Shown here piece by piece: positions 1 to 64,000 of a stretch of 64,000 nt of DNA. A model generated the notes under the pieces. It made no database searches. It worked only from the letters and a program-made list of their open reading frames with translations, and was not told the DNA's origin. The position numbers and the translations under genes are program-made. Positions within the stretch are counted from its first letter, which is position 1; the number at the start of each line of letters is the position of its first letter. The stretch comes from Verrucomicrobiota bacterium. Lineage in GTDB: Bacteria; Verrucomicrobiota; Verrucomicrobiia; Palsa-1439. The stretch covers positions 35,731 to 99,730 of the forward strand of contig VHCW01000001.1 of the NCBI GenBank assembly GCA_016871575.1. The letters are read 5' to 3'.

Positions 1-281
1 AACACGTGCTGGTACAAGAACAGCAAGGCGCTGAACGCTTGGTTCTGAGTTGAGGCGCTGACCCTGCCTTTTACAGCCAGGTGCGTCAGGAACTCGCGCA
101 CGTGTATTGCAGTCAACTCTTGCGGATGGCGTTTCCCGTGGAAGTAAATGTAACGTTTGATCCACTGGACATAAGTCTGTTCGGTGCGCAGGCTGTAATG
201 TTTGAAACGGCAGACCTGCCGAACCTGATCAAGCAATTTTGGCTTGTGAGCTGCCGTTGCGCTCGGTAAACTGCTGTCCAT
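1..281 (-). CDS. intI: Integron-integrase-like tyrosine recombinase, N-terminal part. The gene runs off the window start and its ATG is at 279-281 on the minus strand.
   Basis: Reverse-complement translation of 1..281 reads [93 protein letters not shown]. From memory of IntI1, this matches its N-terminus (..[33 protein letters not shown]....[22 protein letters not shown]). The ORF tool missed it because it is partial; the + strand ORF at 81..269 is its antisense shadow. Confidence 0.72.
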   Translation of the reverse strand, partial: [93 protein letters not shown]

Positions 282-391
282 GAAGCTGGTTCATAACAAA
301 CAAGGCGACCAATGGCCAGCCGAATTAGGCGACCGTCAGTCGCCTTTTTCTACGACCTTAGGTCGTCTAATTATAAGTTCGGTGAAGTAGA

Positions 392-1375
392 ATGAATAGC
401 CCATTGCACATTCTCACATCTGTCATTGTAACGGCACTATTCTGCGGGTGTAATTCGGTTGCTGAATACGGAGGGAAACTTTCGTCTCCGAAAGAAGCTC
501 ATGTGGATTTGTCGGATCAAACTCTGACGAAGTTCGTTGATGGTTCCAGCCAGCTACTGTTTCGATATCTGGCCGGAAATCCCCGCTGGGAGATACGCGA
601 GGAGCGTGGTCTGCGTTACGCAGTTCGCCTTGAGCGTGTTGATGGAGAGTTCGAGACCACGCTCAATGGATTCTACTCGACCTCCAACGGCGGCGCGGTG
701 CGACAGACACGCGTCCTCATCTCGTTTGGCAAGGCGTACGGTTTTGGTCGCGAGCGGGGAAACATTACCCGAACGGAACCAGGTCAGAAGGACGTTTCAC
801 TGATCGTTGAGGGAGACCACGCAGGAACCCCCGGGAACTCGTCTTACACAATCATTGCGGGGGGAAATGTATTTCTTGAAATCTACGATCAAGAACCGGC
901 ACTTACTCGCACGTTTACCCAGACGGCCTTCAATGAAGTGTCCGCAGAATTGCGCGATGTAATTGCGCACCGTGAGTCGATTGAGAAGACCGGTATCCTT
1001 CCCGTACCAGAGCATTACCCAAAGCCCCTCCCACGAAAGAAGTATTTCGAGGTGAAGGATGGCATGCAGCCGGGGATATACTTGATCGCTGCGGCGGTTA
1101 ATCCCACTGAACCCGGATATGCATACATCAAGGCCTTCAATACCAAGACCGGGGAGAGATTGTCTGAGGAGCGGATGACTCCCCGCTCAATTCGTTATTT
1201 GGGTTGGTCGGACGATGGGAAGACATTCTTTCCATACGGATCGGAGGTCACGGTCTATGAAGGCGACTGGAGTTCGACTTACGAAGCTCGTTTTGAGCTT
1301 TGGCATCGATCGGACAAGGGTGCTGAGAAGAAACTCGACGAGACAACCAGATTGATCAACGGATGGCAGCGATGA
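392..1375 (+). CDS. Hypothetical secreted or lipoprotein-like protein. It is the first gene downstream of and divergent from intI, and its GC content is clearly lower than the rest of the window.
   Basis: 327-aa ORF with an N-terminal hydrophobic signal (LTSVIVTALFCGC). No recognisable catalytic motifs. AT-richer codon usage than neighbouring genes. Confidence 0.55.
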   Translation: MNSPLHILTSVIVTALFCGCNSVAEYGGKLSSPKEAHVDLSDQTLTKFVDGSSQLLFRYLAGNPRWEIREERGLRYAVRLERVDGEFETTLNGFYSTSNGGAVRQTRVLISFGKAYGFGRERGNITRTEPGQKDVSLIVEGDHAGTPGNSSYTIIAGGNVFLEIYDQEPALTRTFTQTAFNEVSAELRDVIAHRESIEKTGILPVPEHYPKPLPRKKYFEVKDGMQPGIYLIAAAVNPTEPGYAYIKAFNTKTGERLSEERMTPRSIRYLGWSDDGKTFFPYGSEVTVYEGDWSSTYEARFELWHRSDKGAEKKLDETTRLINGWQR

Positions 1376-21075: not shown

Positions 21076-23449
21076 TCAAAAAGTTTCCTTCCCCTCCGAA
21101 ACATCAAGAAATTCGCGGACTTTGCGGGCCAGGTTGGTGGGGGTATAGGGTTTTTGGAGAAAGGCAGTGTGGCTTTCTTCAATGCCTTCCTGCGTCAGGA
21201 CATCGCGGGTGTAGCCGGACGTGTACAACACTTTCAATGTCGGCCTTGTCTGCCGCAGTTTCACCACGAGGTCGCGGCCGCCCATTTGCGGCATCACCAC
21301 GTCGGTGAGCACAAGATCCGGCTGGATGCCGGGGGTGTCTGCCAGCAACGCGAGTGCCTCAACGCCGTTGGACGCGGGCCAGACGGTGTAGCCTTGTTCG
21401 CGCAACACGGTCGTGGCCAGCAAACGCAGCGCCGGCTCATCCTCGACGACGAGGATGATTTCGTTGCCCCGCGGCAACGCGGTGGAAGCGGGTGGAGGTT
21501 TGTACGAGGCCGTTTCGCCGGGCAGGCGGGGCAAATAGACTTTGACACACGTGCCCCGACCCGGCTCGCTGTACACCACGATGTGACCGCCGCTTTGCTT
21601 GACGATGCCATAGCTCGTGGCCAAACCGAGGCCGGTGGCGTGTCCGTCCTTCTTGGTGGTGAAGAATGGCTCGAACAAATGCGCCTGCACCTCGGGCGAC
21701 ATTCCGACGCCGGTATCGGTGACGGACAACAGCACGCAATCGCCGGTTTGGATGTCGTGGTGTTTGCCGGCATAGCTTTCGTCGAGCGTGGCGTGGGAGG
21801 TGGCAATGGTCAGTGTGCCGCCCTGCGGCATGGCGTCGCGGGCGTTGACAGCGAGGTTGAGAATGACCTGCTCGATCTGGCTGGGGTCGGTCCGGATGAG
21901 GCCGATCGGATCGGCAAGAGCGGTCCGCAAGAGGATGTCATCGCCGAGCACGCGGTGCAGCATGTGGCTCATTTCGGTGACGATCTGGTTCAGGTTGAGG
22001 ACGACGGGTTGCAGGACTTGCTTGCGGCTGAAGGCGAGCAACTGGCGTGTCAGATGCGCGGCGCGATAGGAGGCTTTTTCGACTTCGACAGCCTCGCGGC
22101 GCAACGGGTCATATTGCGGAAGGCGTCGCAGGATGACCTCATTGTAGCCCATGATGGCGGTGAGGATGTTGTTGAAATCATGGGCGACACCACCGGCGAG
22201 GCGGCCAATGGCTTCCAACTTGTTCGTGCGGCGGAGTTGTTCCTCCATGCGGCGGCGTTCCGTGATGTCCTGTTTGACGGCGATGAAATGCGTGATTTGC
22301 CCTTGGGCGCCATAGACGGGAGTGATCGTCTGCTCCTCGGTGTAGAGAGTTCCGTCCTTGCGTCTGTTGATCATTTCGCCCTGCCAGATGCGACCATTCA
22401 GGATGGTGTCCCAAAGTTCCTGGTAGAAACGGCGCGTATGCTGGCTGGACTTGAGGAAACGCGGGTTGCGGCCGATGGCTTCGGCGGGTTCGTAGCCGGT
22501 CAGGCGGCTGAAAGCGGGGTTGGCCCAGATGATGCGGCCGGCGCGGTCGGTGATGAGGATGCCGTTGGCTGCGGCTTCCACCGCGCTGGATTTCAACAGC
22601 AGTTCCTCTTCGGATCGCCGGCGCTGGGTGATGTCGTGGTTGATTTCCAGTGTGCAGAGTTTGCCGCCGATGCGCAGGGGGACGGTAATCCACTCGAAAT
22701 AGTTCTCCTTGCCGTCGGGCCGTATCCATGAGGAGACGCCTCGATAAGGCATTCCAGCGTCACGGGGCTGTCGCAGTTGGGCTTGCTCGGAAGGGCTGAG
22801 CGCGGAACGGGTCAACTGGGTGAGGTCTGGGCAATTCAACAATTCATCGCGGCCGCGGCCGGACATTTCGACGAAACAGTCGTTGCAGAACACGAGTTTG
22901 CGGTAGAACCGTTGCGTTCCGTCGGCGGCGCTGTATTCGGCGCATTCGACCATGGCGATGCCGTCTCGGGCATACTCCAGCAGCAGTCGGAATCGTTGTT
23001 CGCTGGCGCGCCAGATTTCCTCCATGCGGCGGCGCTCGTTGATGTTGCGCACGTTTGCCAAAATGCAGCTCCGGCCGGCAATCTGGCAGGGCCGCAACGC
23101 CACCTCCACCCAGAATCGCTCGTCATTGTGCCGTCGGGCAAGCCACTCAAACGTTTGGGGGCCTTCCTGAAAGGCGCGACGAATCCATTCCTGCGCGTCC
23201 TGCGCCGAATGCGGAGGCTGAATGCGGAGGCTTGCCATCGCTCCACAACTCAATATGATGTCCGACAATTTGCTCGCGGGTGCATCCGTACATTTCCAAG
23301 GCGGCGCGATTGACATCAAGCACCATCCCGCTGACAGGATCGTGCAGGAAGATGGCATCGCTGGTGTTGTTGTACACTTCGCGATACACCGCATCGTTAT
23401 CCGGCAATCGTTGGTTCGTTGTCTCTGGCACGCTTGCGTTTTCTCCCAC
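21076..23449 (-). pseudogene. Hybrid sensor histidine kinase/response regulator with N-terminal PAS domains, frameshifted near the 5' end by a 13-bp tandem duplication.
   Basis: Three PAS-like segments; HisKA (HDFNNILTAI); HATPase_c (GTGLGLATSYGIV); receiver (ILVVEDE...DLVLTDVVMPQMGG). The first PAS domain is split between ORF 23147..23449 and ORF 21076..23457. Removing one copy of gaatgcggaggct (23207..23232) joins them in frame. Confidence 0.7.
23207..23232. repeat. Perfect 13-bp tandem duplication (gaatgcggaggct x2) inside the sensor kinase gene.
   Basis: Read directly in the sequence: ...cgccgaatgcggaggctgaatgcggaggcttgccat... Confidence 0.85.
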
Positions 23450-31861: not shown

Positions 31862-31938
31862 CGCTTTATTGGGCAACCGGGACGATGCTTGACAGAGCAG
31901 GCAGGCATCCTTATCGTGCCGCAGAGAAGGATTCATCC

Positions 31939-34731
31939 ATGTGCCGCGCACATTTCTTTTGTATGCTGGCAGCCGCGTTGTCCTGTGTGGCCGCGGCCGA
32001 AACATTGACGCGCGAGCGGATTGAGGCTGACTGGCAGCGTCAGGACGAAGTTCGCGGGATTCCGGTCACTGGCGGCCCGGTCACGCCGGAGGAGGACGCA
32101 GCGGGAGGGTGCGACGGCGTGCGTGAGGGCGCGTTTGGATTCCACACCGCGCGGGAAGACCGTCCTTGGTGGCAGGTGGACCTCAAGCGGTCATGGTCGC
32201 TCGATCAGGTGTTGATCTACAACCGTTGCGATGAGCACCCCGAACGCGCTGCCCGACTGATCGTGCTGGTTTCCGCTGACGCGAAGAACTGGCGGGAGGT
32301 TTACCGGCACGACGGCACGGTGTTCTACGGGTACCGCGATGCGCGCCCGTTGTCGGTGAACCTGACGGAGATAACTGCCCGCTACGTCCGCATTCAATTG
32401 CCCGAACAAGACACGTGCCTGCACCTCGACGAGGTGGAAGTTTATGCGGCCAGTCATCGCAATCTTGCGCTTGCCATGCCGGCCATGCAAAGCAGCGTCA
32501 GCCCGTTGTCGCGACGTCATCGTCCCAAACTGATAAAGCCGGAACCGTACTCGGTCGCGCATGTGGTCGAGCGCGGCCTGCAATTGGCCGAAAGCTTGCG
32601 ACGAATGGGCGTCGCGGTTGATGCGGAAGAAACTGCGCTTCAGCAGATGTCCAAAGAACCCAATCGGAAAAACTATTTCCGTGCCCGTTGGATGGTGCGA
32701 GGGCTTGCCTTGCGAAATCCGTTGCTGGATTTTGATCGCGTATTGTTCGTCCAACGCGAGCCAGCGCGGTTCAAGACCAGCGCCAAGTCAGGTTGGTACA
32801 CCCACATGTCCGACCAGTATTACGGCTGGTTCACGCGACCGGGCGGCAGCCTGTATATCTTGGAAAGATTCAAGACCGACAACCCGACTGTTCGCTGCCT
32901 GACGCCATCGTTTGCTCCCGGCACGATTGTCCGACCGGAACTTTCCTATGACGCGAAGAAGGTCTTGTTCGCCTACAGCAAACATTATCCCGGCCTGATT
33001 GACCTGCCGGACAAGCTCGACAAATCGAAGATTCCCGAAGACGCGTTCTTCCAGCTTTACGAAATGCGTCTCGACGGTTCCGGCCTGCGCCGGCTCACGC
33101 ACGGCAAGTATGACAACTTCGACGGCCACTATTTGCCGAACGGCGAGATCGTGTTCCTTTCGACGCGTCGCGGCGAAGACCCGCAATACACGAAGGTCAC
33201 GGCGCGCCAACCGCGCGCGAACCGTTGCGACAGTTACGTCCGTTGCGGCGGCGACGAGTTCCGTCCTGTCGCCGTCTATACGCTGCACGTAATGGACGCC
33301 AACGGCGGGCGCATCCGGCCGATTTCGCCGTTCGAGATGTTCGAGTGGGAACCGAGCGTGGACCACGAAGGCCGGATCATTTACTCGCGCTGGGATTACG
33401 TGGACCGCGAGGCGATGCCGTACATGAGCCTCTGGGCGACATTCCCCGACGGCACCGGCACGCAGGCCATCTTCGGCAACTACACGCTCAATCCACATTG
33501 CATGTTCGAGCCGCGCGCGGTGCCCGGCTCCCGCAAGTTTGTTTTTACCGCCTCGGCGCACCACGCCAACACTGCCGGCAGCCTCGTGTTGCTCGACCCG
33601 CGCAAAGGCACCGACGGCAACGCGGCGATGAGCCGGCTCACGCCCGAAGTGCCGTTCCCCGAAATCGAAGCGTGGCCCGACACCTACTACGCGAATCCGT
33701 ATCCGCTCTCCGAGGAACACTACCTGACCGCGTGGAGCGATCAACCGTTGCGCCAGACCGGCCACGAGCTTGGTGCGGCAGCGATGGGCATTTATCTCTT
33801 CGATGTCTTCGGCAACCTCAACCTGCTCTGGCGTGACGCGACGCTCTCCTGCATGTATCCGATCCCGGTTCGTCCACGGACAGTTCCGCCGCAACTCGCT
33901 GCCACAACAGAGTGGGACGGCCTGCAAACTGGCCGAATGGTGGTGATAGATGTTTACCAAGGCTTGGAAGCTGTTCCGCAGGGAACCGTTCGCGGCCTGC
34001 GGCTCGTCGGTGTCCCGCCCAAGAACCATCCGCGCATGAATTATCCGGTGATGGGACTCACCAGACATGATCCCGGCAAGTTTGTGCTCGGCACCGTGCC
34101 GGTCGAGGCGGACGGCTCTGCTTATTTCGAGGCGCCATCGGGTGTGCCGTTCTTCCTGCAAGCGCTCGACGCCGACGGCATGGCCGTCCAAACCATGCGC
34201 AGCGCGACGTACCTTCAGCCGGGTCAACAAGCCAGTTGCGTCGGCTGCCACGAACACCGCCACACCGCTCCGCCCAGCCGCGCGCCGTTGGCGGTGCGAC
34301 GCGCCCCCTCGCGTATCCAACCCGGCCCTGACGGTTCCTGGCCGTTGAACTATCGAACATTGGTTCAGCCCCTGCTTGAAAAGCATTGTGTCAAATGCCA
34401 TCAACCCGGCGCGGTGGCCGCAAAGTTTGACCTCACGCCGGCAAAGTCGTATCAGTCGCTCGCCAATTATGGCGCTCCGAGCTTGAAAACCCATGTCGTG
34501 ACCTATCATCGCCAAGGCCGCTCATCGCCGGGCACCGGTCCTTCCCGCGAGAGCGCGCTGCTGCGTCACCTTCGCCAAGGACACAATAAGGTGTCGCTAA
34601 GCGCCGACGATTGGAACCGGCTCGTCACGTGGATGGACACCTACGGTCAGCAGTTTGGATCGTTCAGCCCCGCCCAAGAACAGCAGTTGATCGAGCTGCG
34701 CCAGAACATGGCCACCGTGTTGGCGAAGTAA
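31939..34731 (+). CDS. Large secreted protein with an N-terminal F5/8 type C (discoidin) domain, a central beta-propeller-like region and two C-terminal CxxCH motifs.
   Basis: Signal peptide MCRAHFFCMLAAALSCVAAA. WWQVDLKRSWSLDQVLIYNR is the discoidin signature. CVGCH and CVKCH lie near the C-terminus. Start chosen at the signal peptide. Confidence 0.6.
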   Translation: MCRAHFFCMLAAALSCVAAAETLTRERIEADWQRQDEVRGIPVTGGPVTPEEDAAGGCDGVREGAFGFHTAREDRPWWQVDLKRSWSLDQVLIYNRCDEHPERAARLIVLVSADAKNWREVYRHDGTVFYGYRDARPLSVNLTEITARYVRIQLPEQDTCLHLDEVEVYAASHRNLALAMPAMQSSVSPLSRRHRPKLIKPEPYSVAHVVERGLQLAESLRRMGVAVDAEETALQQMSKEPNRKNYFRARWMVRGLALRNPLLDFDRVLFVQREPARFKTSAKSGWYTHMSDQYYGWFTRPGGSLYILERFKTDNPTVRCLTPSFAPGTIVRPELSYDAKKVLFAYSKHYPGLIDLPDKLDKSKIPEDAFFQLYEMRLDGSGLRRLTHGKYDNFDGHYLPNGEIVFLSTRRGEDPQYTKVTARQPRANRCDSYVRCGGDEFRPVAVYTLHVMDANGGRIRPISPFEMFEWEPSVDHEGRIIYSRWDYVDREAMPYMSLWATFPDGTGTQAIFGNYTLNPHCMFEPRAVPGSRKFVFTASAHHANTAGSLVLLDPRKGTDGNAAMSRLTPEVPFPEIEAWPDTYYANPYPLSEEHYLTAWSDQPLRQTGHELGAAAMGIYLFDVFGNLNLLWRDATLSCMYPIPVRPRTVPPQLAATTEWDGLQTGRMVVIDVYQGLEAVPQGTVRGLRLVGVPPKNHPRMNYPVMGLTRHDPGKFVLGTVPVEADGSAYFEAPSGVPFFLQALDADGMAVQTMRSATYLQPGQQASCVGCHEHRHTAPPSRAPLAVRRAPSRIQPGPDGSWPLNYRTLVQPLLEKHCVKCHQPGAVAAKFDLTPAKSYQSLANYGAPSLKTHVVTYHRQGRSSPGTGPSRESALLRHLRQGHNKVSLSADDWNRLVTWMDTYGQQFGSFSPAQEQQLIELRQNMATVLAK

Positions 34732-34858
34732 AATACTCCGTTTACGGCTGCTCAGTTCTGAGGGTTGTCAGGACTCGACCCCACCGATTATGAGAACTCG
34801 GCCCCGATTCCCTTTACCTGCGAGCACTGATCAAACTCGAAGGTATAAATCCCTAGCG

Positions 34859-35986
34859 TTACCTGTAGGTTTTCTTTTTACAAAGTATAGGCATTTGTGA
34901 GTTCGACGATGATCCCATATCAAGCAGGTGGTCTTGGATTGTATCAATCGCTTTCCAACCGGGAGGGATGCGGGAGTCGTGTCGTTCAATGAATCGGTGC
35001 GTCCAACTGGTGGAACTCGTATGGAAGCCAATTATCGCCTTGGAGCAATATTCAGTCAGTCCCACTGCGTCAAGGAGCACCCGGATGTCTCCAGGGTAGC
35101 GTACGAGGTCTTGCCAATCAGCGACATCATAATCAACCCCGAATTCCGCTCTAACTGCGCCTAGAATGTCATCAGAAATTCTGTATTTCCTCTTTGTAAT
35201 GCGAAACCGAAGCGCATTTGCCCTCTCGACGGTTGACATTGATGCCTTCAAGTCTAAGTTTGCTGGCCAGCACCCTTGGAATAAGGTCACCCCGTCTGCT
35301 CCAATTATCTTCAAGGCTATACCTGTTATATTGGGAGGGCGGAACTTTATGGTTTCTTGGAAAGAACCAGACCGTCTGGTCGCCGACCCGCACTTCGTCG
35401 TGAAACCGGGACAATCAACGATTACGGCTTTCCCCGCTGCAATTGGCGGCACATGAACCCGGTCTATCTGCATCGCGTGTGCAGATTTGTCAGATTTTAT
35501 AATCACATTCTGTGGCGGAATTGTCAGATGTTCCGAATCGAGAGGCGATGGATACGCTTCGAATCTGTAAGAAGCATCTATTACGAGTCCTTGTAGTGAT
35601 AGGGTGCTTTGGGAGAGCCTGACTCGAAGAAACTGGCGCAGTAGACTGGGTTTTCGCACGAAGGTGTAATGAATAACAACGAGAGGACGATGTTCGGTGT
35701 TTCGATCTTCTTCCAAAGGAATTGAGGAATCGTTCTCGTTGATTTGAGCGATCACCGCTTGAACTGCAAATGGCGGACTCCTGCTTGCCGGAATGTAAAG
35801 ATTGAGTGGGAGACTGGAAGAAAGTCGAGGAGCTTTTGAGACGTCTGAATAGAATTCCGCTTCAGCCGCCGATACCTCCTTCCGAGCAAGATTCTCTATC
35901 GTATCTTTGGCAATCGTTGAACCAGAATACATGACTGTGATTGTGGAACATATGATCAATATCAGTGTTTTCATATGAGAGTCCAT
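34859..35986 (-). CDS. Orphan secreted hypothetical protein encoded on a low-GC islet.
   Basis: Signal peptide MKTLILIICSTITVMYS. The GC content of 34740..36330 is visibly lower than the flanks. No motifs recognised. Confidence 0.5.
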   Translation of the reverse strand: MDSHMKTLILIICSTITVMYSGSTIAKDTIENLARKEVSAAEAEFYSDVSKAPRLSSSLPLNLYIPASRSPPFAVQAVIAQINENDSSIPLEEDRNTEHRPLVVIHYTFVRKPSLLRQFLRVRLSQSTLSLQGLVIDASYRFEAYPSPLDSEHLTIPPQNVIIKSDKSAHAMQIDRVHVPPIAAGKAVIVDCPGFTTKCGSATRRSGSFQETIKFRPPNITGIALKIIGADGVTLFQGCWPANLDLKASMSTVERANALRFRITKRKYRISDDILGAVRAEFGVDYDVADWQDLVRYPGDIRVLLDAVGLTEYCSKAIIGFHTSSTSWTHRFIERHDSRIPPGWKAIDTIQDHLLDMGSSSNSQMPILCKKKTYR

Positions 35987-36181
35987 CAGCCTCCGACGGT
36001 GATGCTCATTTCGTTGCTCCATTGGCCGACTTGTTGGTCGCCGACACGATAAATGGCGCGGTATTTCCATTTGACCAGCGTGGCGGGTGGCGGACAGGTG
36101 TCGGTGTAGCCGGGTGTGGTGTCGAACGCGAACTTCATCCAGCAATGAAGTACGGTAATCGGCGAGAGAAAGAAGTCGGTC

Positions 36182-36220
36182 GCTATTCGCTGTTGCGCTG
36201 TTGCGCTGTTGCGCTGTTGC
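36182..36220. repeat. 8-bp tandem repeat, (gctgttgc)x4 plus one degenerate copy, in the upstream region of the low-GC gene.
   Basis: Read directly: cgctattcgctgttgcgctgttgcgctgttgcgctgttgccagag. A second repeat, atttttgctgct x2, lies at 36295..36318. Confidence 0.8.
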
Positions 36221-36326
36221 CAGAGATGAAGCGTGTCATTTCATTTGTCTCCGGTCGGCATCTATAAGGCTCCGGTTTCCCAAAAGTCAATGTTATTTTT
36301 GCTGCTATTTTTGCTGCTGGCAAATC

Positions 36327-37751
36327 TTACAGCCGGCTCCGTTTGGCGTCGCGCAGTTGCTCGAAGAGCTTGGTCAATGTCGCGACAATCTCCGGATGCT
36401 CACGATAAACGTTCTTCGTTTCGCCGGGGTCGGCGGCGAGGTCGTACAGTTGCATCGGCGGTGCGTCGGGTTTGAGTTTGCCGTCGGGCGTGTAATCACT
36501 GTTGACCATGCCGACTTGCGAGAACTTGAGATAGGGAGCACGTTCAGTTTTCTCCGTCGAGTAACCGGAGCCTTGCCCCATCACCAGTTTCCAGTTTCCC
36601 TCACGCACAGCCCAGATGTCCTCCTGCTTCCTGTGCCGAAACAGGGATGAAGAACGCGCCTGCACGATGAGATTCGTTCGCGAGCCGTTCTTGCCGAGCA
36701 GCAACGGCAGCGCGTCGAAGCTGTCCTCGCCGACATCGGCGGGCAATGTCTGGCCGGTCAGCGCGGCGAACGTGGCCAGCATATCGGTGAGGCAGAGCAA
36801 CTGTTCCGACTTTGTTCCGACTGGAATGTGGCCGGGCCAGCGCGCGAGGAACGGCACGCGATTGCCGCCCTCCCACGCGTCGCCTTTCTGTCCGTTGAAC
36901 GGCGCGCACGGGCGATGACCAGTGGGGAAACCTTCCCGCTCATACACGCCGCCGTTGTCGCTGGTGAAGATGACGAGCGTGTTGTCGGTCAACTTGAGCC
37001 GGTCGAGCGTGGCGAGCAGTTCGCCGACCGACCAGTCCAACTCGTGAACGAAGTCGCCGTACTTGCCGGCCTGACTGGTGCCGGCGAACTTTGCGTTCGG
37101 CGTAAGTGGCGTGTGGATGTTGTTCGGCACGTAGTGGAGATAGAACGGCTTGTCTTTATTGCGTTCGATGAACGCGATAGCTTTCTCGTGCAGCACGCGG
37201 GCATTCTCGTCGTTCTTCATGGTGAGCGTCGGTGTGATGCGATGATCTTCGACGTATGGTCCCCAGCGATTGCTGACATCGCCAAAGAAATAATCGAAGC
37301 CGACCTCCAGCGGTCCCGGCTTGAGTTCGCCTTTCCAGTCCACACGTTGTTTCGGCGTTCCGAAACCGAGATGCCATTTGCCGACGATGCCAGTGGTGTA
37401 GCCGGCCCGCTTCAGCAGCGACGCGGTCGTCATTCGCCCCTCCTCGATCAACAGCGCCGCGCCGGGTGACGCCCAACAGACTTGCGACCGCCGGCACGGG
37501 TAGCGTCCCGTCAATACACCGTACCGCGTCGGACAACACACGCCCGCCGGCGTGTGCGCATCGGTGAGTCGGATGCCTTCCTTAGCGATGCGATCAATGC
37601 CGGGCGTCTTGAGCTTCGTCGCGCCTTGGCACGAGAGATCGTTATAGCCGAGGTCGTCGGCGAGGATGAGGACAATATTTGGTTTTACGAAGGCCCCCGC
37701 GAGAGATTGGCCACAAAACAGAGCCAGCCAGATGGCAAAGATGCGTTTCAT
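36327..37751 (-). CDS. Sulfatase (arylsulfatase family) with a signal peptide.
   Basis: IVLILADDLGYND and CCPTR (the C-x-P-x-R formylglycine motif). Confidence 0.88.
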   Translation of the reverse strand: MKRIFAIWLALFCGQSLAGAFVKPNIVLILADDLGYNDLSCQGATKLKTPGIDRIAKEGIRLTDAHTPAGVCCPTRYGVLTGRYPCRRSQVCWASPGAALLIEEGRMTTASLLKRAGYTTGIVGKWHLGFGTPKQRVDWKGELKPGPLEVGFDYFFGDVSNRWGPYVEDHRITPTLTMKNDENARVLHEKAIAFIERNKDKPFYLHYVPNNIHTPLTPNAKFAGTSQAGKYGDFVHELDWSVGELLATLDRLKLTDNTLVIFTSDNGGVYEREGFPTGHRPCAPFNGQKGDAWEGGNRVPFLARWPGHIPVGTKSEQLLCLTDMLATFAALTGQTLPADVGEDSFDALPLLLGKNGSRTNLIVQARSSSLFRHRKQEDIWAVREGNWKLVMGQGSGYSTEKTERAPYLKFSQVGMVNSDYTPDGKLKPDAPPMQLYDLAADPGETKNVYREHPEIVATLTKLFEQLRDAKRSRL

Positions 37752-37816
37752 GGCAACTGTGATAACTAATCTGTCATTGAGTTTCAATCTTCGAGGATAG
37801 AACTGACAGCATTAAA

Positions 37817-38548
37817 TTACAGCAGCTTGGTTTTGCCGGGAATGGCGACGGGATAGATGCCGTCGGGGCCGGGTTTCACGGGTGGTTCCGTCTTCATCGT
37901 GATCTCGCCTTGCGGCGGGAAGGCGAACTTCGAGTCCATCGTTTCCTTCCACGTGAGTCGCTTGCCGGTGTAAGCGGAGAGCTGGCCGAGCACCGTGACC
38001 ATCGTGGAGTCAGCCAATACCTTTGCACCGCGCATTGGCTTGCCGTCACGGAGGGTCTTTAGGAACTCCTTGTGCTCTTGGATGTAAGGTGTGCTGTCTG
38101 GCTGCAAGGGGTCGGCCTTCCAAGTGATGTTTCCTTTCAAGTCCATGATGTAAGGCTGTCCCATGGCCGGAAAACAGCACCGCCCTTTGCTGCCGTGGTA
38201 CATGTCCTTGGTCATTCCATAGCAGCCGAAGGCGGTTCGACAAGAACCATAGATACACAAGCCGCTGGGATACTCATAAGTGACATGATGATGATCGAAG
38301 GAAGTGCCCATCGAGCCTTGGAAATGCGTGGAGCGGCCGCCCATTGCGTAAGCCGCCTCCGGCATCACGTCGCCGATGGTCCACAACGCCGAGTCGAGAT
38401 TATGAATGAGCGATTGCGGGATGTCGGCACCCTGCATCCGCTTGACCGCCGCGTGCGCGAAGCGACTCACATCGGGTGCGCCCACCAAAGTGCCGACGGC
38501 GGCGATGGCGGAAGTCTTCAGGAACTCATGACGAGTGGGGCGCTTCAT
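37817..38548 (-). CDS. Truncated Gfo/Idh/MocA paralog: a TAT signal peptide joined directly to the C-terminal alpha/beta domain, with no NAD-binding Rossmann domain.
   Basis: MKRPTRHEFLKTSAIAAVGTLVGAP... then ..HHVTYEYPSGLCIYGSCRTAFGCYG.., which aligns to the C-terminal halves of the full-length paralogs at 5588, 6914 and 57427. Confidence 0.55.
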   Translation of the reverse strand: MKRPTRHEFLKTSAIAAVGTLVGAPDVSRFAHAAVKRMQGADIPQSLIHNLDSALWTIGDVMPEAAYAMGGRSTHFQGSMGTSFDHHHVTYEYPSGLCIYGSCRTAFGCYGMTKDMYHGSKGRCCFPAMGQPYIMDLKGNITWKADPLQPDSTPYIQEHKEFLKTLRDGKPMRGAKVLADSTMVTVLGQLSAYTGKRLTWKETMDSKFAFPPQGEITMKTEPPVKPGPDGIYPVAIPGKTKLL

Positions 38549-38630
38549 GGTGTGTCCTTTGGTTGGCAATGAAAACACCATGTCCGTCAATCCACTTTGA
38601 CAAAACAGTCCGCCACCCTATTCCCCCAGA

Positions 38631-44725: not shown

Positions 44726-44801
44726 GGGGGTGTAGCTCATTTGGTAGAGCGCCTCGTTCGCAACGAGGAGGTAAGGGGTTCGAGTCCCCTCACCTCCACC
44801 A
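44726..44801 (+). tRNA. tRNA-Ala (anticodon CGC), with an encoded CCA end.
   Basis: GGGGGUG acceptor stem with a G3:U70 pair, anticodon loop UUCGCAA, T-loop UUCGAGU. The cloverleaf folds cleanly by hand. Confidence 0.85.
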
Positions 44802-52807: not shown

Positions 52808-52834
52808 CCCAACTTTCCCAACTTTCCCAACTTT
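52808..52834. repeat. 9-bp direct repeat (cccaacttt x3) roughly 110-135 bp upstream of the MotA/ExbB-like gene.
   Basis: Read directly: gcccaactttcccaactttcccaactttgggc. Confidence 0.8.
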
Positions 52835-62429: not shown

Positions 62430-63115
62430 AACAACCCAATCTCCCGAAGGCTCACATAATCGCAGTCCCGCCCTTCGGTGCGACGGCCCAAAATAATGTG
62501 GTCGTGGACGTTGATGCCGAGTAACTCGCCGGCTTTGACGAGGCGTTTGGTGATGGCGATGTCTTCGCTGCTCGGCGTCGGGTCGCCGCTGGGATGGTTG
62601 TGCGCAAGGATCACGCCGGCGGCGGAAGCAGTGATGGCGTCCTTGAAGACCTCGCGCGGCTCGACAATGCTCGCGTTGAGCGAGCCGAGCGACACGGCGC
62701 AGGTCTTGATAAAAGCATTCTTGGTGTTGAGGAGAATGACGCGGAACGATTCGCGGTCGAGCAGCCGCATTTCCTCGCGCACCAGTTCCGCTGCGTCGGC
62801 GGGCGTCGTGATGATCGGCTGGCGTTCGTGGGCGCGCGCGCGGAGATGACGCGCCAGCATGAATGCGGCCTTCAGTTGAATGGCTTTGGTCTTGCCGACG
62901 CCTTTGATCTTCGCGATTTCTTCCAGCGGCGCGCGCGCCAGCCCGTCCAGTGTGCGGAACGTCTTGATGAGTTCCTGCGCGACCTGTACCGCCGACATTC
63001 CCTTCGTGCCGGTGCGCAGCAGAATCGCAAGCAACTCCGCGTCACCCAGCATCTCGGCACCGAGTCGTGCGAGTCGTTCGCGCGGACGGTCGTCTGCCGG
63101 CATGTCGCGGATCAT
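62426..63115 (-). CDS. radC: DNA repair protein RadC (JAMM/MPN+ family).
   Basis: ..HNHPSGDPTPSSEDIAITKRL..; HhH-like N-terminal part. Start at MIRDMPADD. Confidence 0.85.
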   Translation of the reverse strand: MIRDMPADDRPRERLARLGAEMLGDAELLAILLRTGTKGMSAVQVAQELIKTFRTLDGLARAPLEEIAKIKGVGKTKAIQLKAAFMLARHLRARAHERQPIITTPADAAELVREEMRLLDRESFRVILLNTKNAFIKTCAVSLGSLNASIVEPREVFKDAITASAAGVILAHNHPSGDPTPSSEDIAITKRLVKAGELLGINVHDHIILGRRTEGRDCDYVSLREIGLL

Positions 63116-63374
63116 GTAACGAAATTCCGGCCGAGCCTCGCCGATTTGTGAGCGTGGACTGTCGCTATTCATTTTTATTGTGTCGCCTTCGTTCCGTATC
63201 CTTAACTACGCTAGGCGCACGCCGTGAGCCTGCCCGCGTTCGCAGGCCGCACCTTCGAAGAAAATTCAGTAGGCTCATCACTCAATAACGATGACCGACC
63301 AGTTCCGGAGTGTCGAGCAAATATTTTTCCGTGATTGCATACGGACTCGTTGATTTGATAATCTTTCGGATGAA

Positions 63375-63680
63375 ATGAATCCTTTACATCCACAGTCAGA
63401 GCGAAAGCCGTTCTTCGATTTCAAAGTCGAGGATATTTTCTGGATCAGCGGACATGGCGCTGTTGTCACCGGGACGGTCATCAAGGGAGCAGTCAGGGCG
63501 GGGGCGGCAGCTTTCCTCAAGAAAGCGAATGGCGAAACGAAACCCATAAGAATTACTGGAATTGAGGGATTCCGGAAAATCCTCAAGGAGGCGCTAATGG
63601 GAGAGAATGTTGGGCTGACGATTGCTGATTTGGATAAGGACGATTTCGATATCGGAGATGTTATCACATTTGAATCGTGA
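63375..63680 (+). CDS. Small protein resembling EF-Tu domain 2 (translation-factor beta-barrel), in a lower-GC region.
   Basis: ..FKVEDIFWISGHGAVVTGTVIKGAVRAG....ITGIE.FRKILKEALMGENVGLTI.. has the same pattern as EF-Tu domain II (..[22 protein letters not shown]....GVEMFRK.LDEG.AGDNVG..). Confidence 0.45.
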   Translation: MNPLHPQSERKPFFDFKVEDIFWISGHGAVVTGTVIKGAVRAGAAAFLKKANGETKPIRITGIEGFRKILKEALMGENVGLTIADLDKDDFDIGDVITFES

Positions 63681-64000
63681 GTAGAACCGGCGAACTTTGC
63701 GATTATCTTCCCCCGGAGTGTGTTCCGCTGATTGACAAGTGGATTGGGGATTATGGCGTGGAATGTTTGATCGTCTCGACGCGAAAAACTAAACGGGGTG
63801 ATTGCAGACACAACCGTCGTACCGGCCAAGTGATTATCACGCTGAATGCCGACAACAACAAGTACCGTTTTCTTCTTACGCTGATCCACGAACTAGCACA
63901 CGCAAGAGTATTTCGTGAATCCGGTTTTGCAGGCAAGCCGCACGGCACTCCGTGGAAAAACGTTTTGCGACAGATGGTTTTTGAGGTGAAAGCACTCGGT
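63676..64000 (+). CDS. SprT-like zinc metallopeptidase domain protein. Partial: it runs off the window end. Its GTG start overlaps the stop of the upstream mini-ORF (GTGA).
   Basis: ..GQVIITLNADNNKYRFLLTLIHELAHARVF.. (HExxH). Confidence 0.45.

What the first reader, a model, noticed from the sequence alone, without database searches (positions are those of the whole stretch)
34735..36330. ~1.6-kb low-GC islet encoding an orphan secreted protein, bounded on its promoter side by two different simple tandem repeats
The base composition drops sharply immediately after the stop of the 948-aa gene (34731) and recovers at the sulfatase gene (36327). The islet encodes one signal-peptide-bearing protein with no recognisable domains. 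Its upstream region carries (gctgttgc)x4 (36182..36220) and (atttttgctgct)x2 (36295..36318). The pattern suggests a horizontally acquired or fast-evolving gene whose expression could be modulated by repeat-number variation.
Basis: seen in the sequence. Interest (0 to 1): 0.55.

Follow-up and report, generated by a model that had tools for sequence, protein, structure and literature searches.

The report
Mobile low-GC cassette encoding secreted lectin-like protein
The low-GC islet is real and was gained by insertion, but its gene is not an orphan: it is one of a family of small swappable gene cassettes that collect just after the stop codon of a conserved, unnamed gene, and it encodes an exported protein with a C-type-lectin-like binding domain.

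Summary
Window 34733..36319 has 49% GC against 61%, the lowest stretch of that size in 64 kb, and both tandem repeats are real.

- **Acquired:** the closest relative has an unrelated 173 bp at this site.
- **Not an orphan:** the gene (371 aa, from the ATG at 35974) has a signal peptide and a rare N-terminal domain with two relatives. Its C-terminal domain has over 200 relatives, is absent from Pfam and models as a C-type-lectin-like fold.
a "50-aa ORF" (35986..36138) is the last 50 codons of an unnamed 227-310-aa gene, here called X.

In related metagenome contigs, diverse lower-GC genes begin right after the X stop codon.
- One contig holds three cassettes, each preceded by a 46-nt copy of the X end.
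- Two 99.7%-identical strains diverge exactly at that stop codon.
- A motif, GAGTCCTGAYAAC, closes cassettes in five places, including here.

The 8-mer array sits in a conserved promoter-like leader. It has 4, 5 or 7 units in three related leaders, but is identical in five assemblies of this population. Phase variation is therefore unsupported.

The recombination enzyme is unknown. The junction forms no hairpin, so these are not integron attC sites.

The parts
34733..36319 (-). The islet: a 1587-bp inserted cassette, read on the minus strand, downstream of and co-directional with the sulfatase gene
   Evidence: In relative L006 this stretch is replaced by an unrelated 173 bp, while both flanks align at 87-88% nt. 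GC 0.492 is the lowest 1587-nt window of the 64 kb.
34746..34778 (-). Cassette end element: TCGAGTCCTGACAAC followed by ..AACTGAGC, about 80 nt after the stop of the cassette gene and 15 nt from the stop of the 948-aa gene
   Evidence: GAGTCCTGAYAAC (at most 1 mismatch) occurs at six sites in five independent sequences. Each site follows a cassette gene downstream of X and has the same orientation as X: window, L048, L075, L081 (twice) and L115. About 1.2 such matches are expected by chance in 1.03 Mb.
34859..35974 (-). Cassette gene, 371 aa (stop included): signal peptide, rare N-terminal domain, C-type-lectin-like C-terminal domain
   Evidence: ORF. The ATG at 35974 is conserved with homologue P0004, while the upstream ATG at 35986 is not. 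GC3 0.47.
35909..35974 (-). Predicted Sec signal peptide (residues 1-22, MKTLILIICSTITVMYSGSTIA)
   Evidence: Read from the sequence. Conserved in P0004 and P0017. No dedicated predictor was available, so this is an inference.
35240..35902 (-). N-terminal domain (residues about 25-245) of a rare family
   Evidence: The only relatives among 1.84 billion representative proteins are P0004 (238 aa, 1e-28) and P0017 (263 aa, 2e-15). The AlphaFold model is poor here. No PDB sequence match.
34871..35227 (-). C-terminal domain (residues about 250-368) with a C-type-lectin-like fold
35986..36138 (-). Remnant of the last 50 codons plus stop of a family-X gene (the "50-aa ORF"); its TGA overlaps the non-conserved ATG at 35986
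   Evidence: In 75 metagenome loci this sequence is mostly the C-terminal end of a 227-310-aa protein ending at the same stop. The window holds nothing of X upstream of it. The start codon is ACG in L040 and L041.
35986..36035 (-). Core repeat of about 46-50 nt (end of X) that precedes each cassette in arrays
   Evidence: Three copies lie between cassettes in L115, 95-98% identical to this stretch over the first two copies (the third extends into the gene start at 79%), although the resident X of L115 is only about 38% identical in protein.
36188..36220 (-). Octanucleotide array (CAACAGCG)x4 in the leader
   Evidence: TRF score 66. The homologous position in L040 has (CACCCGCG)x4 plus TACCCGCG. 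In L041 it has CAACCGCG, (CACCAGCG)x5, CAACCGCG. No other array of this kind occurs in 1.03 Mb of loci.
36261..36290 (-). Conserved promoter-like site TTGACT-18 nt-TATAGA (-35 at 36290..36285, -10 at 36266..36261)
   Evidence: Similarity to L040 starts exactly at the -35 hexamer. L040 and L041 have TTGACT-18-TATACG. The consensus scanner did not call it because position 6 of the second hexamer is not T. This is an inference.
36294..36318 (.). 12-mer duplication (TATTTTTGCTGC x2.1) at the islet/host junction
   Evidence: TRF score 50. It lies between the end of similarity to L006 (36320) and the start of similarity to L040 (36290), and is absent from both.
31885..34731 (+). Left flank: 948-aa protein (F5/8 type C plus hydrazine-synthase-alpha-like middle domain), convergent with the cassette
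   Evidence: Pfam. Orthologue in L006 at 91% aa.
36327..37787 (-). Right flank: sulfatase, upstream of and co-directional with the cassette
   Evidence: Pfam Sulfatase 2e-53. Orthologue in L006 at 88% aa. No terminator-like site between it and the cassette.

Best explanation
The islet is a small mobile gene cassette acquired by a Lake Tanganyika Verrucomicrobiota bacterium. It sits between a sulfatase gene and a convergent 948-aa gene.

**Cargo.** The cassette carries one gene for a Sec-exported protein. Its C-terminal C-type-lectin-like domain most likely binds an extracellular ligand, such as a glycan or a surface protein. That role is inferred from the fold alone.

**Cassette family.** The cassette belongs to a family that accumulates directly after the stop codon of a conserved, uncharacterised gene called X here. 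X encodes 227-310 aa, and its conserved C-terminal end looks like a fibronectin-III-type domain by eye (not tested).

**Cassette anatomy.** Each cassette begins with a copy of the last 46-150 nt of X. In the window's close relatives, each ends with an element of about 30 nt containing GAGTCCTGAYAAC.

**Mechanism I commit to.** Cassettes move by recombination at these two conserved ends. A recombinase encoded elsewhere probably acts on the junction of the end element and the X-end core. Cassettes can therefore be added in tandem, swapped, or dropped at secondary sites such as this one.

**This copy.** The 5' part of X is gone. A conserved promoter-like leader containing a slippage-prone octanucleotide array stands in its place. 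Expression is therefore from this leader, from read-through of the sulfatase gene, or from both.

**The repeats.** The array changes unit number and unit sequence over evolutionary time. Nothing shows that it acts as an on/off switch. The 12-mer duplication is a junction scar.

**Shown versus inferred.**
- Shown: the insertion, the domain content, the X remnant, the arrays and the breakpoint at the X stop codon.
- Inferred: the recombination mechanism, the promoter, export and ligand binding.
For: **Insertion.** L006 aligns to window 32411-34732 and 36320-37685 at 87-88% nt, with an unrelated 173 bp in between. Composition is atypical at z about -4, and GC3 is 0.47 against 0.74.

**Protein.**
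- 250 homologues at E<=1e-3 and a domain alignment.
- AlphaFold gives pLDDT 87.7 for the C-terminal domain.

**X remnant.**
- 75 loci encode a relative of the 50-aa sequence; in most of those not cut by a contig end, it forms the C-terminal end of a 227-310-aa protein with the same stop.
- The window holds only the last ~50 codons of X.

**Cassette behaviour.**
- L115 reads: X end | 46-nt copy | 174-aa gene | end element plus 46-nt copy | 86-aa gene | copy | P0004 (a homologue of the window's N-terminal domain) | convergent uvrA. The cassette genes have GC 0.44-0.50 against 0.64-0.66 for the flanks.
- L081 shares uvrA with L115 at 87% nt but holds a different cassette.
- L048 and L045 are 99.7% identical over 2097 bp up to the X stop codon and unrelated after it.
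- The L048 cassette recurs at 81% in L056, behind a truncated X.
- Six loci carry 2-3 X-end copies.
- 61 downstream genes fall into 36 clusters and mostly have lower GC than X.
- The end motif is found only at cassette ends and always in the same orientation.
- L081 carries about 50 nt of the 3' end of the window's 948-aa gene between two end motifs, as expected from imprecise transfer out of a window-like site.

**Leader.** It is shared with L040 and L041 from the -35 hexamer to the X remnant, yet different genes follow. The array has 4, 5 or 7 units.
Against: - No recombinase was found beside any cassette array or among the window ORFs that were scanned.
- The X-end copies differ in length (46 to 150 nt) across loci. 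This fits homologous recombination or decay as well as site-specific recombination.
- The junction has no secondary structure.
- The end motif was seen only in the closer relatives of the window's X type.
- The window's copy is not next to an X gene, so its arrival here needs a secondary or illegitimate event.
- The L006 comparison alone cannot distinguish gain in the window's lineage from loss in L006.
- The promoter is only a conserved consensus-like match.
Confidence: 0.6

Rival explanations
1. One reading: a horizontally acquired orphan gene whose expression is switched by changes in tandem-repeat copy number (a contingency locus).
For: Two perfect tandem repeats lie upstream of the gene. 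The octanucleotide array differs in unit number (4, 5, 7) among three related leaders, so it does slip over time.
Against: Copy numbers are identical in five assemblies of the population. The array lies after the conserved -10-like hexamer and before any conserved start codon. It is not in a conserved reading frame, so length changes would alter neither promoter spacing nor frame. The 12-mer duplication is absent from the related leaders. The gene is not an orphan.
Confidence: 0.1
2. Cassettes are exchanged purely by homologous recombination after DNA uptake. The conserved X end serves as one arm and a conserved neighbouring gene or the end element as the other. No dedicated recombinase or specific site is involved.
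For: X-end copies vary in length from 46 to 150 nt but all end at the stop codon. No recombinase was found nearby. The substitutions between X remnants are mostly synonymous (8 synonymous to 2 non-synonymous between window and L040; a 7-of-9 count gave binomial P about 1e-3) although L040 and L041 lack a start codon. This fits repeated conversion from intact X genes.
Against: L115 has three tandem cassettes, each preceded by a 46-49-nt copy that is 93-98% identical to copies in other genomes, while its own X is only about 38% identical in protein. A conserved end element follows cassettes. The window's cassette sits at a site with no X gene.
Confidence: 0.3
3. The islet is ancestral at this site and was deleted in the L006 lineage. 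Its low GC would then reflect relaxed or different selection on a fast-evolving secreted protein rather than transfer.
For: Only one close relative with this junction was available. Every contig carrying the identical sulfatase also carries the islet.
Against: GC3 is 0.47 against 0.74. The islet carries a fragment of a gene (X) that is otherwise absent from the window. It also carries both cassette boundary elements found in unrelated genomic contexts. L006 has an unrelated 173 bp rather than a simple deletion scar.
Confidence: 0.1
4. The 50-aa ORF is a genuine small protein or leader peptide, translationally coupled to the downstream gene through the TGATG overlap.
For: In the window it has an ATG, 50 codons and a stop that overlaps an ATG. 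JGI called it as a gene. Substitutions against L040 are mostly synonymous.
Against: The ATG is ACG in L040, L041 and L042. The overlapped ATG at 35986 is not conserved in L115, where the conserved start corresponds to 35974. The sequence is the second half of a domain in full-length X proteins. Copies of only 46 nt precede other cassettes.
Confidence: 0.08

Closest known systems
Integron gene cassettes, including CALINs (attC clusters without an integrase) and solitary cassettes inserted outside att sites (PMC4889954; 10.1101/2022.09.11.507474)
   Same: Both have co-oriented single-gene units of atypical composition, stacked in tandem next to a fixed anchor and separated by a repeated boundary sequence. 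Content differs between close strains. Solitary copies occur elsewhere in the genome and are expressed from nearby promoters.
   Different: The boundary is not an attC. It forms no hairpin (z-scores +0.8 and +1.7 against shuffles) and has no RYYYAAC/GTTRRRY pair. The repeat is the coding 3' end of a protein gene and lies upstream of each cassette gene. No IntI-type integrase was found nearby.
Genomic islands that integrate into the 3' end of a gene and leave a duplicated 3' fragment, such as tRNA- or tmRNA-targeting islands and tandem accretion of cis-mobilisable elements (from general knowledge)
   Same: Direct repeats made of a gene's 3' end bracket foreign, compositionally atypical DNA. Tandem accretion occurs at one anchor gene.
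   Different: The units here are 0.4-2.5 kb with one gene each and no integrase of their own. The anchor is a protein-coding gene of unknown function. In L115 the resident X keeps its own divergent, complete end, and the foreign-type copy follows it.
Orphan C-terminal modules downstream of rhs and cdiA genes, and silent partial gene copies used for cassette exchange (from general knowledge)
   Same: Truncated copies keep only a conserved segment of the main gene, followed by variable content. Recombination through the conserved segment swaps the variable part.
   Different: Here the conserved segment ends at the stop codon and the variable part is a separate gene, not a fused domain. No toxin or immunity signature was found (PADLOC and Pfam negative).
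Bacterial C-type-lectin-like domains: invasin/intimin D-terminal domain, Legionella Lcl C-terminal domain, Bdellovibrio Bd2740 C-terminal domain
   Different: There is no sequence match to any Pfam lectin-like family or to any PDB chain. The family has its own motifs (ADWNDL, RHYFIERHDH, LGSW), and the window protein has lost part of the last one.

Membership tests
Integron cassette / CALIN | attC site: an imperfect palindrome of 50-150 nt that folds into a hairpin, with inverse core RYYYAAC and core GTTRRRY | tested here: not met
   The complete inter-cassette junction of L115 and both window ends fold no better than shuffles on either strand (z +1.65, +0.76, -0.52, +1.03). No complementary core pair is visible in the sequences.
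Integron cassette / CALIN | Tandem, co-oriented, mostly single-gene units separated by a repeated recombination site | tested here: met
   L115 has three units, each preceded by a 46-49-nt repeat. L075, L081, L084, L087 and L097 have two copies each.
Integron cassette / CALIN | Integron integrase (IntI) next to the array (required for a complete integron, not for a CALIN) | tested here: not met
   No recombinase domain was found in the neighbours scanned in L047, L075, L081 and L115, or in 18 window ORFs. The scan was not exhaustive.
Phase-variable contingency locus (simple-sequence repeat switch) | Repeat tract lies inside the coding frame or between the -35 and -10 hexamers, so that unit gain or loss switches expression | tested here: not met
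   The array (36188..36220) lies 41 nt downstream of the conserved -10-like hexamer. It lies upstream of the X remnant and the gene, in a stretch with no start codon and no coding-type conservation.
Phase-variable contingency locus (simple-sequence repeat switch) | Copy number varies within a population | tested here: inconclusive
   The window and four other Lake Tanganyika contigs all have 4 and 2 copies. These are consensus assemblies, and no reads were available.
Phase-variable contingency locus (simple-sequence repeat switch) | Copy number differs between related loci or strains | tested here: met
   4, 5 and 7 units in the window, L040 and L041/L042, with a different unit sequence in each.
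C-type lectin-like domain (fold level) | Structural similarity to solved C-type lectin-like domains | tested here: met
C-type lectin-like domain (Pfam Lectin_C, DUF1566, FGE-sulfatase) | Sequence match to the family profile | tested here: not met
   No Pfam hit for the window protein at E<=0.01, or for ten family members at E<=0.1.
C-type lectin-like domain (functional lectin) | Ca2+ and carbohydrate-binding residues (EPN/QPD and WND motifs) | not tested
   No residue-level superposition was made.
Horizontally acquired genomic islet | Atypical composition, and absence from the syntenic site of a close relative | tested here: met
Horizontally acquired genomic islet | Adjacent tRNA gene or mobility gene | tested here: not met
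   The only tRNA in the window is at 44726..44801. No integrase or transposase was found among the ORFs scanned.
Orphan (ORFan) gene | No detectable homologue | tested here: not met
   The word-indexed search found only the protein itself. Exhaustive phmmer found 250 hits at E<=1e-3 and 33 at E<=1e-10.

The most novel reading that the evidence does not exclude
X and its 3' end define a previously undescribed gene-capture platform. It works like an integron but uses a linear site of about 80 nt that forms no hairpin, made of the end element plus the coding end of X, and a recombinase not encoded next to it. It stacks and exchanges single-gene, low-GC cassettes, mostly for secreted or membrane proteins, in Verrucomicrobiota and in other lineages whose genomic GC ranges from about 0.36 to 0.69. 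The window's islet would be a solitary cassette that escaped to a secondary site and acquired its own promoter leader.
Probability: 0.3. Interest if true: 0.8.

Novelty: new variant of a known kind. Interest (0 to 1): 0.55.

Why it matters
A low-GC islet carrying one secreted protein is ordinary in itself. What matters is the context it exposes.
- A conserved, unnamed gene has a stop codon that marks a sharp recombination breakpoint.
- Behind it lie single-gene cassettes with defined ends, which differ between strains that are otherwise 99.7% identical.

If this is a dedicated capture system, it would be a route of accessory-gene flow in abundant but poorly studied freshwater and soil bacteria, running alongside integrons. 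It would also give a simple sequence handle, the X-end core plus the end motif, for finding such cassettes in metagenomes.

The work also puts a fold on a domain family with more than 200 members that is missing from Pfam.

Tried and rejected
**Family and database searches**
- Pfam, NCBIfam, PHROGs and PADLOC on the 375-aa and 50-aa products: no hits.
- Word-indexed homologue search: only the protein itself. Searches with the alignments returned 8 and 2 proteins.
- PDB sequence and profile searches for the whole protein, the C-terminal domain, the N-terminal domain and X: nothing significant.
- Pfam, PHROGs and NCBIfam on X: nothing.
- Two family searches failed on a bad coordinate.

**Structure**
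- The full-length AlphaFold model was poor outside the C-terminal domain, and its Foldseek search of the PDB was meaningless.
- A Foldseek search of viral structures (BFVD) with the domain model found nothing, so there is no phage link.
- The afdb50 library was unavailable.

**RNA and tRNA ideas**
- Rfam on 34600-36500 at E<=1: no family, so no known riboswitch or leader.
- Minimum-free-energy folds of the three leaders share no common structure beyond small GCG/CGC hairpins within the array. Three sequences were too few for a covariation test, so none was run.
- I considered whether GGGTCGAGTCC in the end motif is a tRNA T-arm remnant. No complementary stem exists, and ARAGORN finds only a distant tRNA-Ala.

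**Other ideas**
- An attC-like hairpin was rejected.
- A diversity-generating retroelement target was considered because of the lectin-like fold. No reverse transcriptase or template repeat was seen in the islet or its flanks.
- The consensus promoter and terminator scan did not call the conserved TTGACT-18-TATAGA site and found no terminator after the sulfatase gene.
- A search for an islet-free allele carrying the identical sulfatase found none.
Full report

Yes. The window averages 61% GC. The 1-kb bin 35001-36000 has 48.3%, the lowest in the window. In 200-nt bins starting at 34700-35900, GC stays between 0.455 and 0.525.

Defined by comparison with a relative (section 3), the islet is 34733..36319. 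Its GC of 0.492 is the minimum of all 1587-nt windows in the 64 kb (z about -3.8 to -4.2). The third-position GC of its gene is 0.47, against 0.74 +/- 0.085 for 37 other long ORFs.

Tandem Repeats Finder reports CGCTGTTG x4.1 at 36188..36220 (score 66, the best in the window). It also reports TATTTTTGCTGC x2.1 at 36294..36318 (score 50). Only four arrays in the window reach a score of 50, and these two lie 75 nt apart.

**2. The gene is not an orphan.**

Curated libraries find nothing, and the word-indexed search finds only the protein itself. An exhaustive phmmer search of 1.84 billion representatives gives 250 hits at E<=1e-3. These hits split the protein in two.

- **N-terminal domain.** Residues 5-244 match only two short proteins: P0004 (238 aa, 40% identity) and P0017 (263 aa). 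P0004 aligns from its own Met1 to Met5 of the 375-aa frame. The nucleotide context CATATGAAAAC is conserved in the P0004 locus, while the upstream ATG is not. The real start is therefore the ATG at 35974, giving 371 aa that begin MKTLILIICSTITVMYSGSTIAKD. This is a typical Sec signal, judged by eye. The JGI gene call starts 14 codons further in, at Met19 of the 375-aa frame, and so loses the signal.
- **C-terminal domain.** Residues about 250-370 belong to a large family that is often repeated in tandem and combined with Big_2, TIG or PKD domains. Its motifs are ADWNDL, RHYFIERHDH and LGSW. It is absent from Pfam and from PDB sequences.
- **Limits.** The N-terminal domain could not be modelled. 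Foldseek searches of the PDB (with the poor full-length model) and of viral structures gave nothing.

**3. The islet is an insertion relative to the nearest relative.**

The 948-aa neighbour places the organism among Verrucomicrobiota (Limisphaerales/Pedosphaerales-like MAGs).

In the closest relative, L006, the 948-aa protein is 91% identical and the sulfatase 88% identical. The two convergent genes there are about 190 bp apart. At nucleotide level, L006 aligns to window 32411-34732 and 36320-37685 at 87-88%. An unrelated 173 bp replaces the window's 1587 bp.

The same islet is 100% identical over the shared 2.1-4 kb in four other contigs from the Lake Tanganyika study. No islet-free contig with the identical sulfatase was found.

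**4.

The ORF 35986..36138 (50 aa, GC3 0.725) was called as a gene by JGI. A metagenome scan found 75 loci that encode a relative of it.

- In most loci not cut by a contig end, the 50 residues are the C-terminal end of a 227-310-aa protein that stops at the same place. The conserved tail reads WKYRAIYRxxDQQVGQWS.
- This family, X here, has no Pfam, PHROGs, NCBIfam or PDB match.
- The window contains only the last ~50 codons of X, so the "ORF" is a remnant.
- Its ATG is ACG in the two related copies that share the same truncation point, L040 and L041/L042.
- Substitutions between the remnants are nevertheless mostly synonymous: 8 to 2 between window and L040 (a 7-of-9 count gave binomial P about 1e-3), whereas all changes just upstream are non-synonymous. 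I read this as exchange with intact X genes rather than translation of the remnant.

**5. The end of X is a cassette boundary.**

- L048 and L045 are 99.7% identical over 2097 bp up to the X stop codon and unrelated after it.
- L115, which carries P0004, is an array: X end | 46-nt copy of the window-type X end | 174-aa gene | 46-nt copy | 86-aa gene | copy | P0004 | convergent uvrA.
  - The three cassette genes have GC 0.44-0.50, against 0.64-0.66 for X and uvrA.
  - The first two copies are 95-98% identical to the window, although L115's own X is only about 38% identical to window-type X proteins.
- L081 shares uvrA with L115 at 87% nt but holds a different cassette, a zinc-ribbon plus trypsin-like protein.
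- The L048 cassette recurs at 81% in L056, behind a truncated X.
- Six loci hold two or three X-end copies.
- Across 61 loci, the gene after X falls into 36 clusters and usually has lower GC than X.

**6. Cassettes also have a conserved far end.**

GAGTCCTGAYAAC (at most one mismatch) occurs at six sites in five independent sequences: window 34776..34764, L048, L075, L081 (twice) and L115. Each site follows a cassette gene and has the orientation of X. About 1.2 matches would be expected by chance in 1.03 Mb. Hits with two mismatches are at chance level.

In L115 this element abuts the next 46-nt copy, so the full junction is the end element plus the X-end core.

In L081 two end motifs bracket about 50 nt of the 3' end of the window's 948-aa gene, at 46 of 50 identical positions. 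This is the same neighbour arrangement as in the window, and it suggests an imprecise transfer from a window-like site.

The junction does not fold into a hairpin on either strand, so these are not integron attC sites. No recombinase was found in the neighbours or window ORFs that I scanned.

**7. The repeats.**

The window, L040 and L041/L042 share a leader that starts exactly at a TTGACT hexamer. The leader runs TTGACT-18 nt-TATAGA (TATACG in L040 and L041), then an octanucleotide array, then the X remnant. Different genes follow in each case.

| Leader | Array |
|---|---|
| Window | (CAACAGCG)x4 |
| L040 | (CACCCGCG)x4 + TACCCGCG |
| L041/L042 | CAACCGCG + (CACCAGCG)x5 + CAACCGCG |

So the tract turns over by slippage with homogenisation of units. 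However, it lies after the -10-like hexamer and outside any conserved frame. It is also identical in five assemblies of this population.

Rfam finds no known RNA here, and no common fold is evident.

The 12-mer duplication lies between the end of host similarity (36320) and the start of leader similarity (36290). It is absent from both L006 and L040, so it is best read as a junction scar.

A 16/22 direct repeat flanks the islet: 34736-34757 against the last codons of the sulfatase gene at 36337-36358. It may be a target duplication or it may be chance.

**8. Verdict.**

The best reading is a solitary member of a family of X-linked gene cassettes carrying an exported, lectin-like binding protein. 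The mechanism of movement is inferred (recombination at the two conserved ends), and the enzyme is unknown. A purely homologous-recombination route remains a serious rival.

The closest known systems are integron cassettes, including CALINs and solitary cassettes (PMC4889954; 10.1101/2022.09.11.507474), and islands that target gene 3' ends. The defining attC hairpin was tested and is absent, so I file this as a new variant of a known kind rather than as an integron.

Noticed in passing
L045 3935-4792 and L048 1241-2098: Two contigs are 99.7% identical over 2097 bp up to the stop codon of the X gene and unrelated immediately after it. This is a strain-level breakpoint exactly at a stop codon.
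   Followed up: partly
L115 1-4167 and L081 1-6240: Both loci have X and a convergent uvrA (87% nt identical between them). L115 holds three cassettes between the two genes. L081 holds one unrelated cassette plus a 147-aa ORF.
   Followed up: partly
L081 2255-2368: About 50 nt of the 3' end of the window's 948-aa gene (46/50 identical) sit between two copies of GAGTCCTGAYAAC, far from any 948-aa-type gene.
   Followed up: partly
L007, L008, L013, L015, L021, L025, L028 and others: The 948-aa family (F5/8 type C plus hydrazine-synthase-alpha-like middle domain) occurs as 2-5 tandem paralogues in related Verrucomicrobiota MAGs. The 257-aa ORF at window 37817..38590 (no Pfam hit) recurs beside them in L016, L030 and L032.
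   Followed up: no
window 34859..35974 (JGI call P0001): The public gene call starts at Met19 of the 375-aa frame and so removes the signal peptide. Annotation pipelines would therefore miss that the protein is exported.
   Followed up: yes
window 1-1375 and 63001-64000: Both ends of the window are also low in GC (0.52 and 0.514). ORF 392..1375 has GC 0.524 and GC3 0.564, with no Pfam hit. These may be further foreign islets.
   Followed up: no
window 52808..52834 and 23207..23232: A perfect (CCCAACTTT)x3 and a perfect 13-mer x2 are the other two tandem repeats in the window that score 50 or more.
   Followed up: no
window 34736-34757 and 36337-36358: An imperfect 22-nt direct repeat (16/22) flanks the islet. 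The second copy is the last codons of the sulfatase gene. It may be a target duplication or chance.
   Followed up: partly
L039/L040 1502-2140, L044 downstream of X, L081 403-2238: Several genes downstream of X start with a double zinc-ribbon (C-x2-C ... C-x2-C) followed by a membrane or protease part. This is a recurring cassette cargo type.
   Followed up: no
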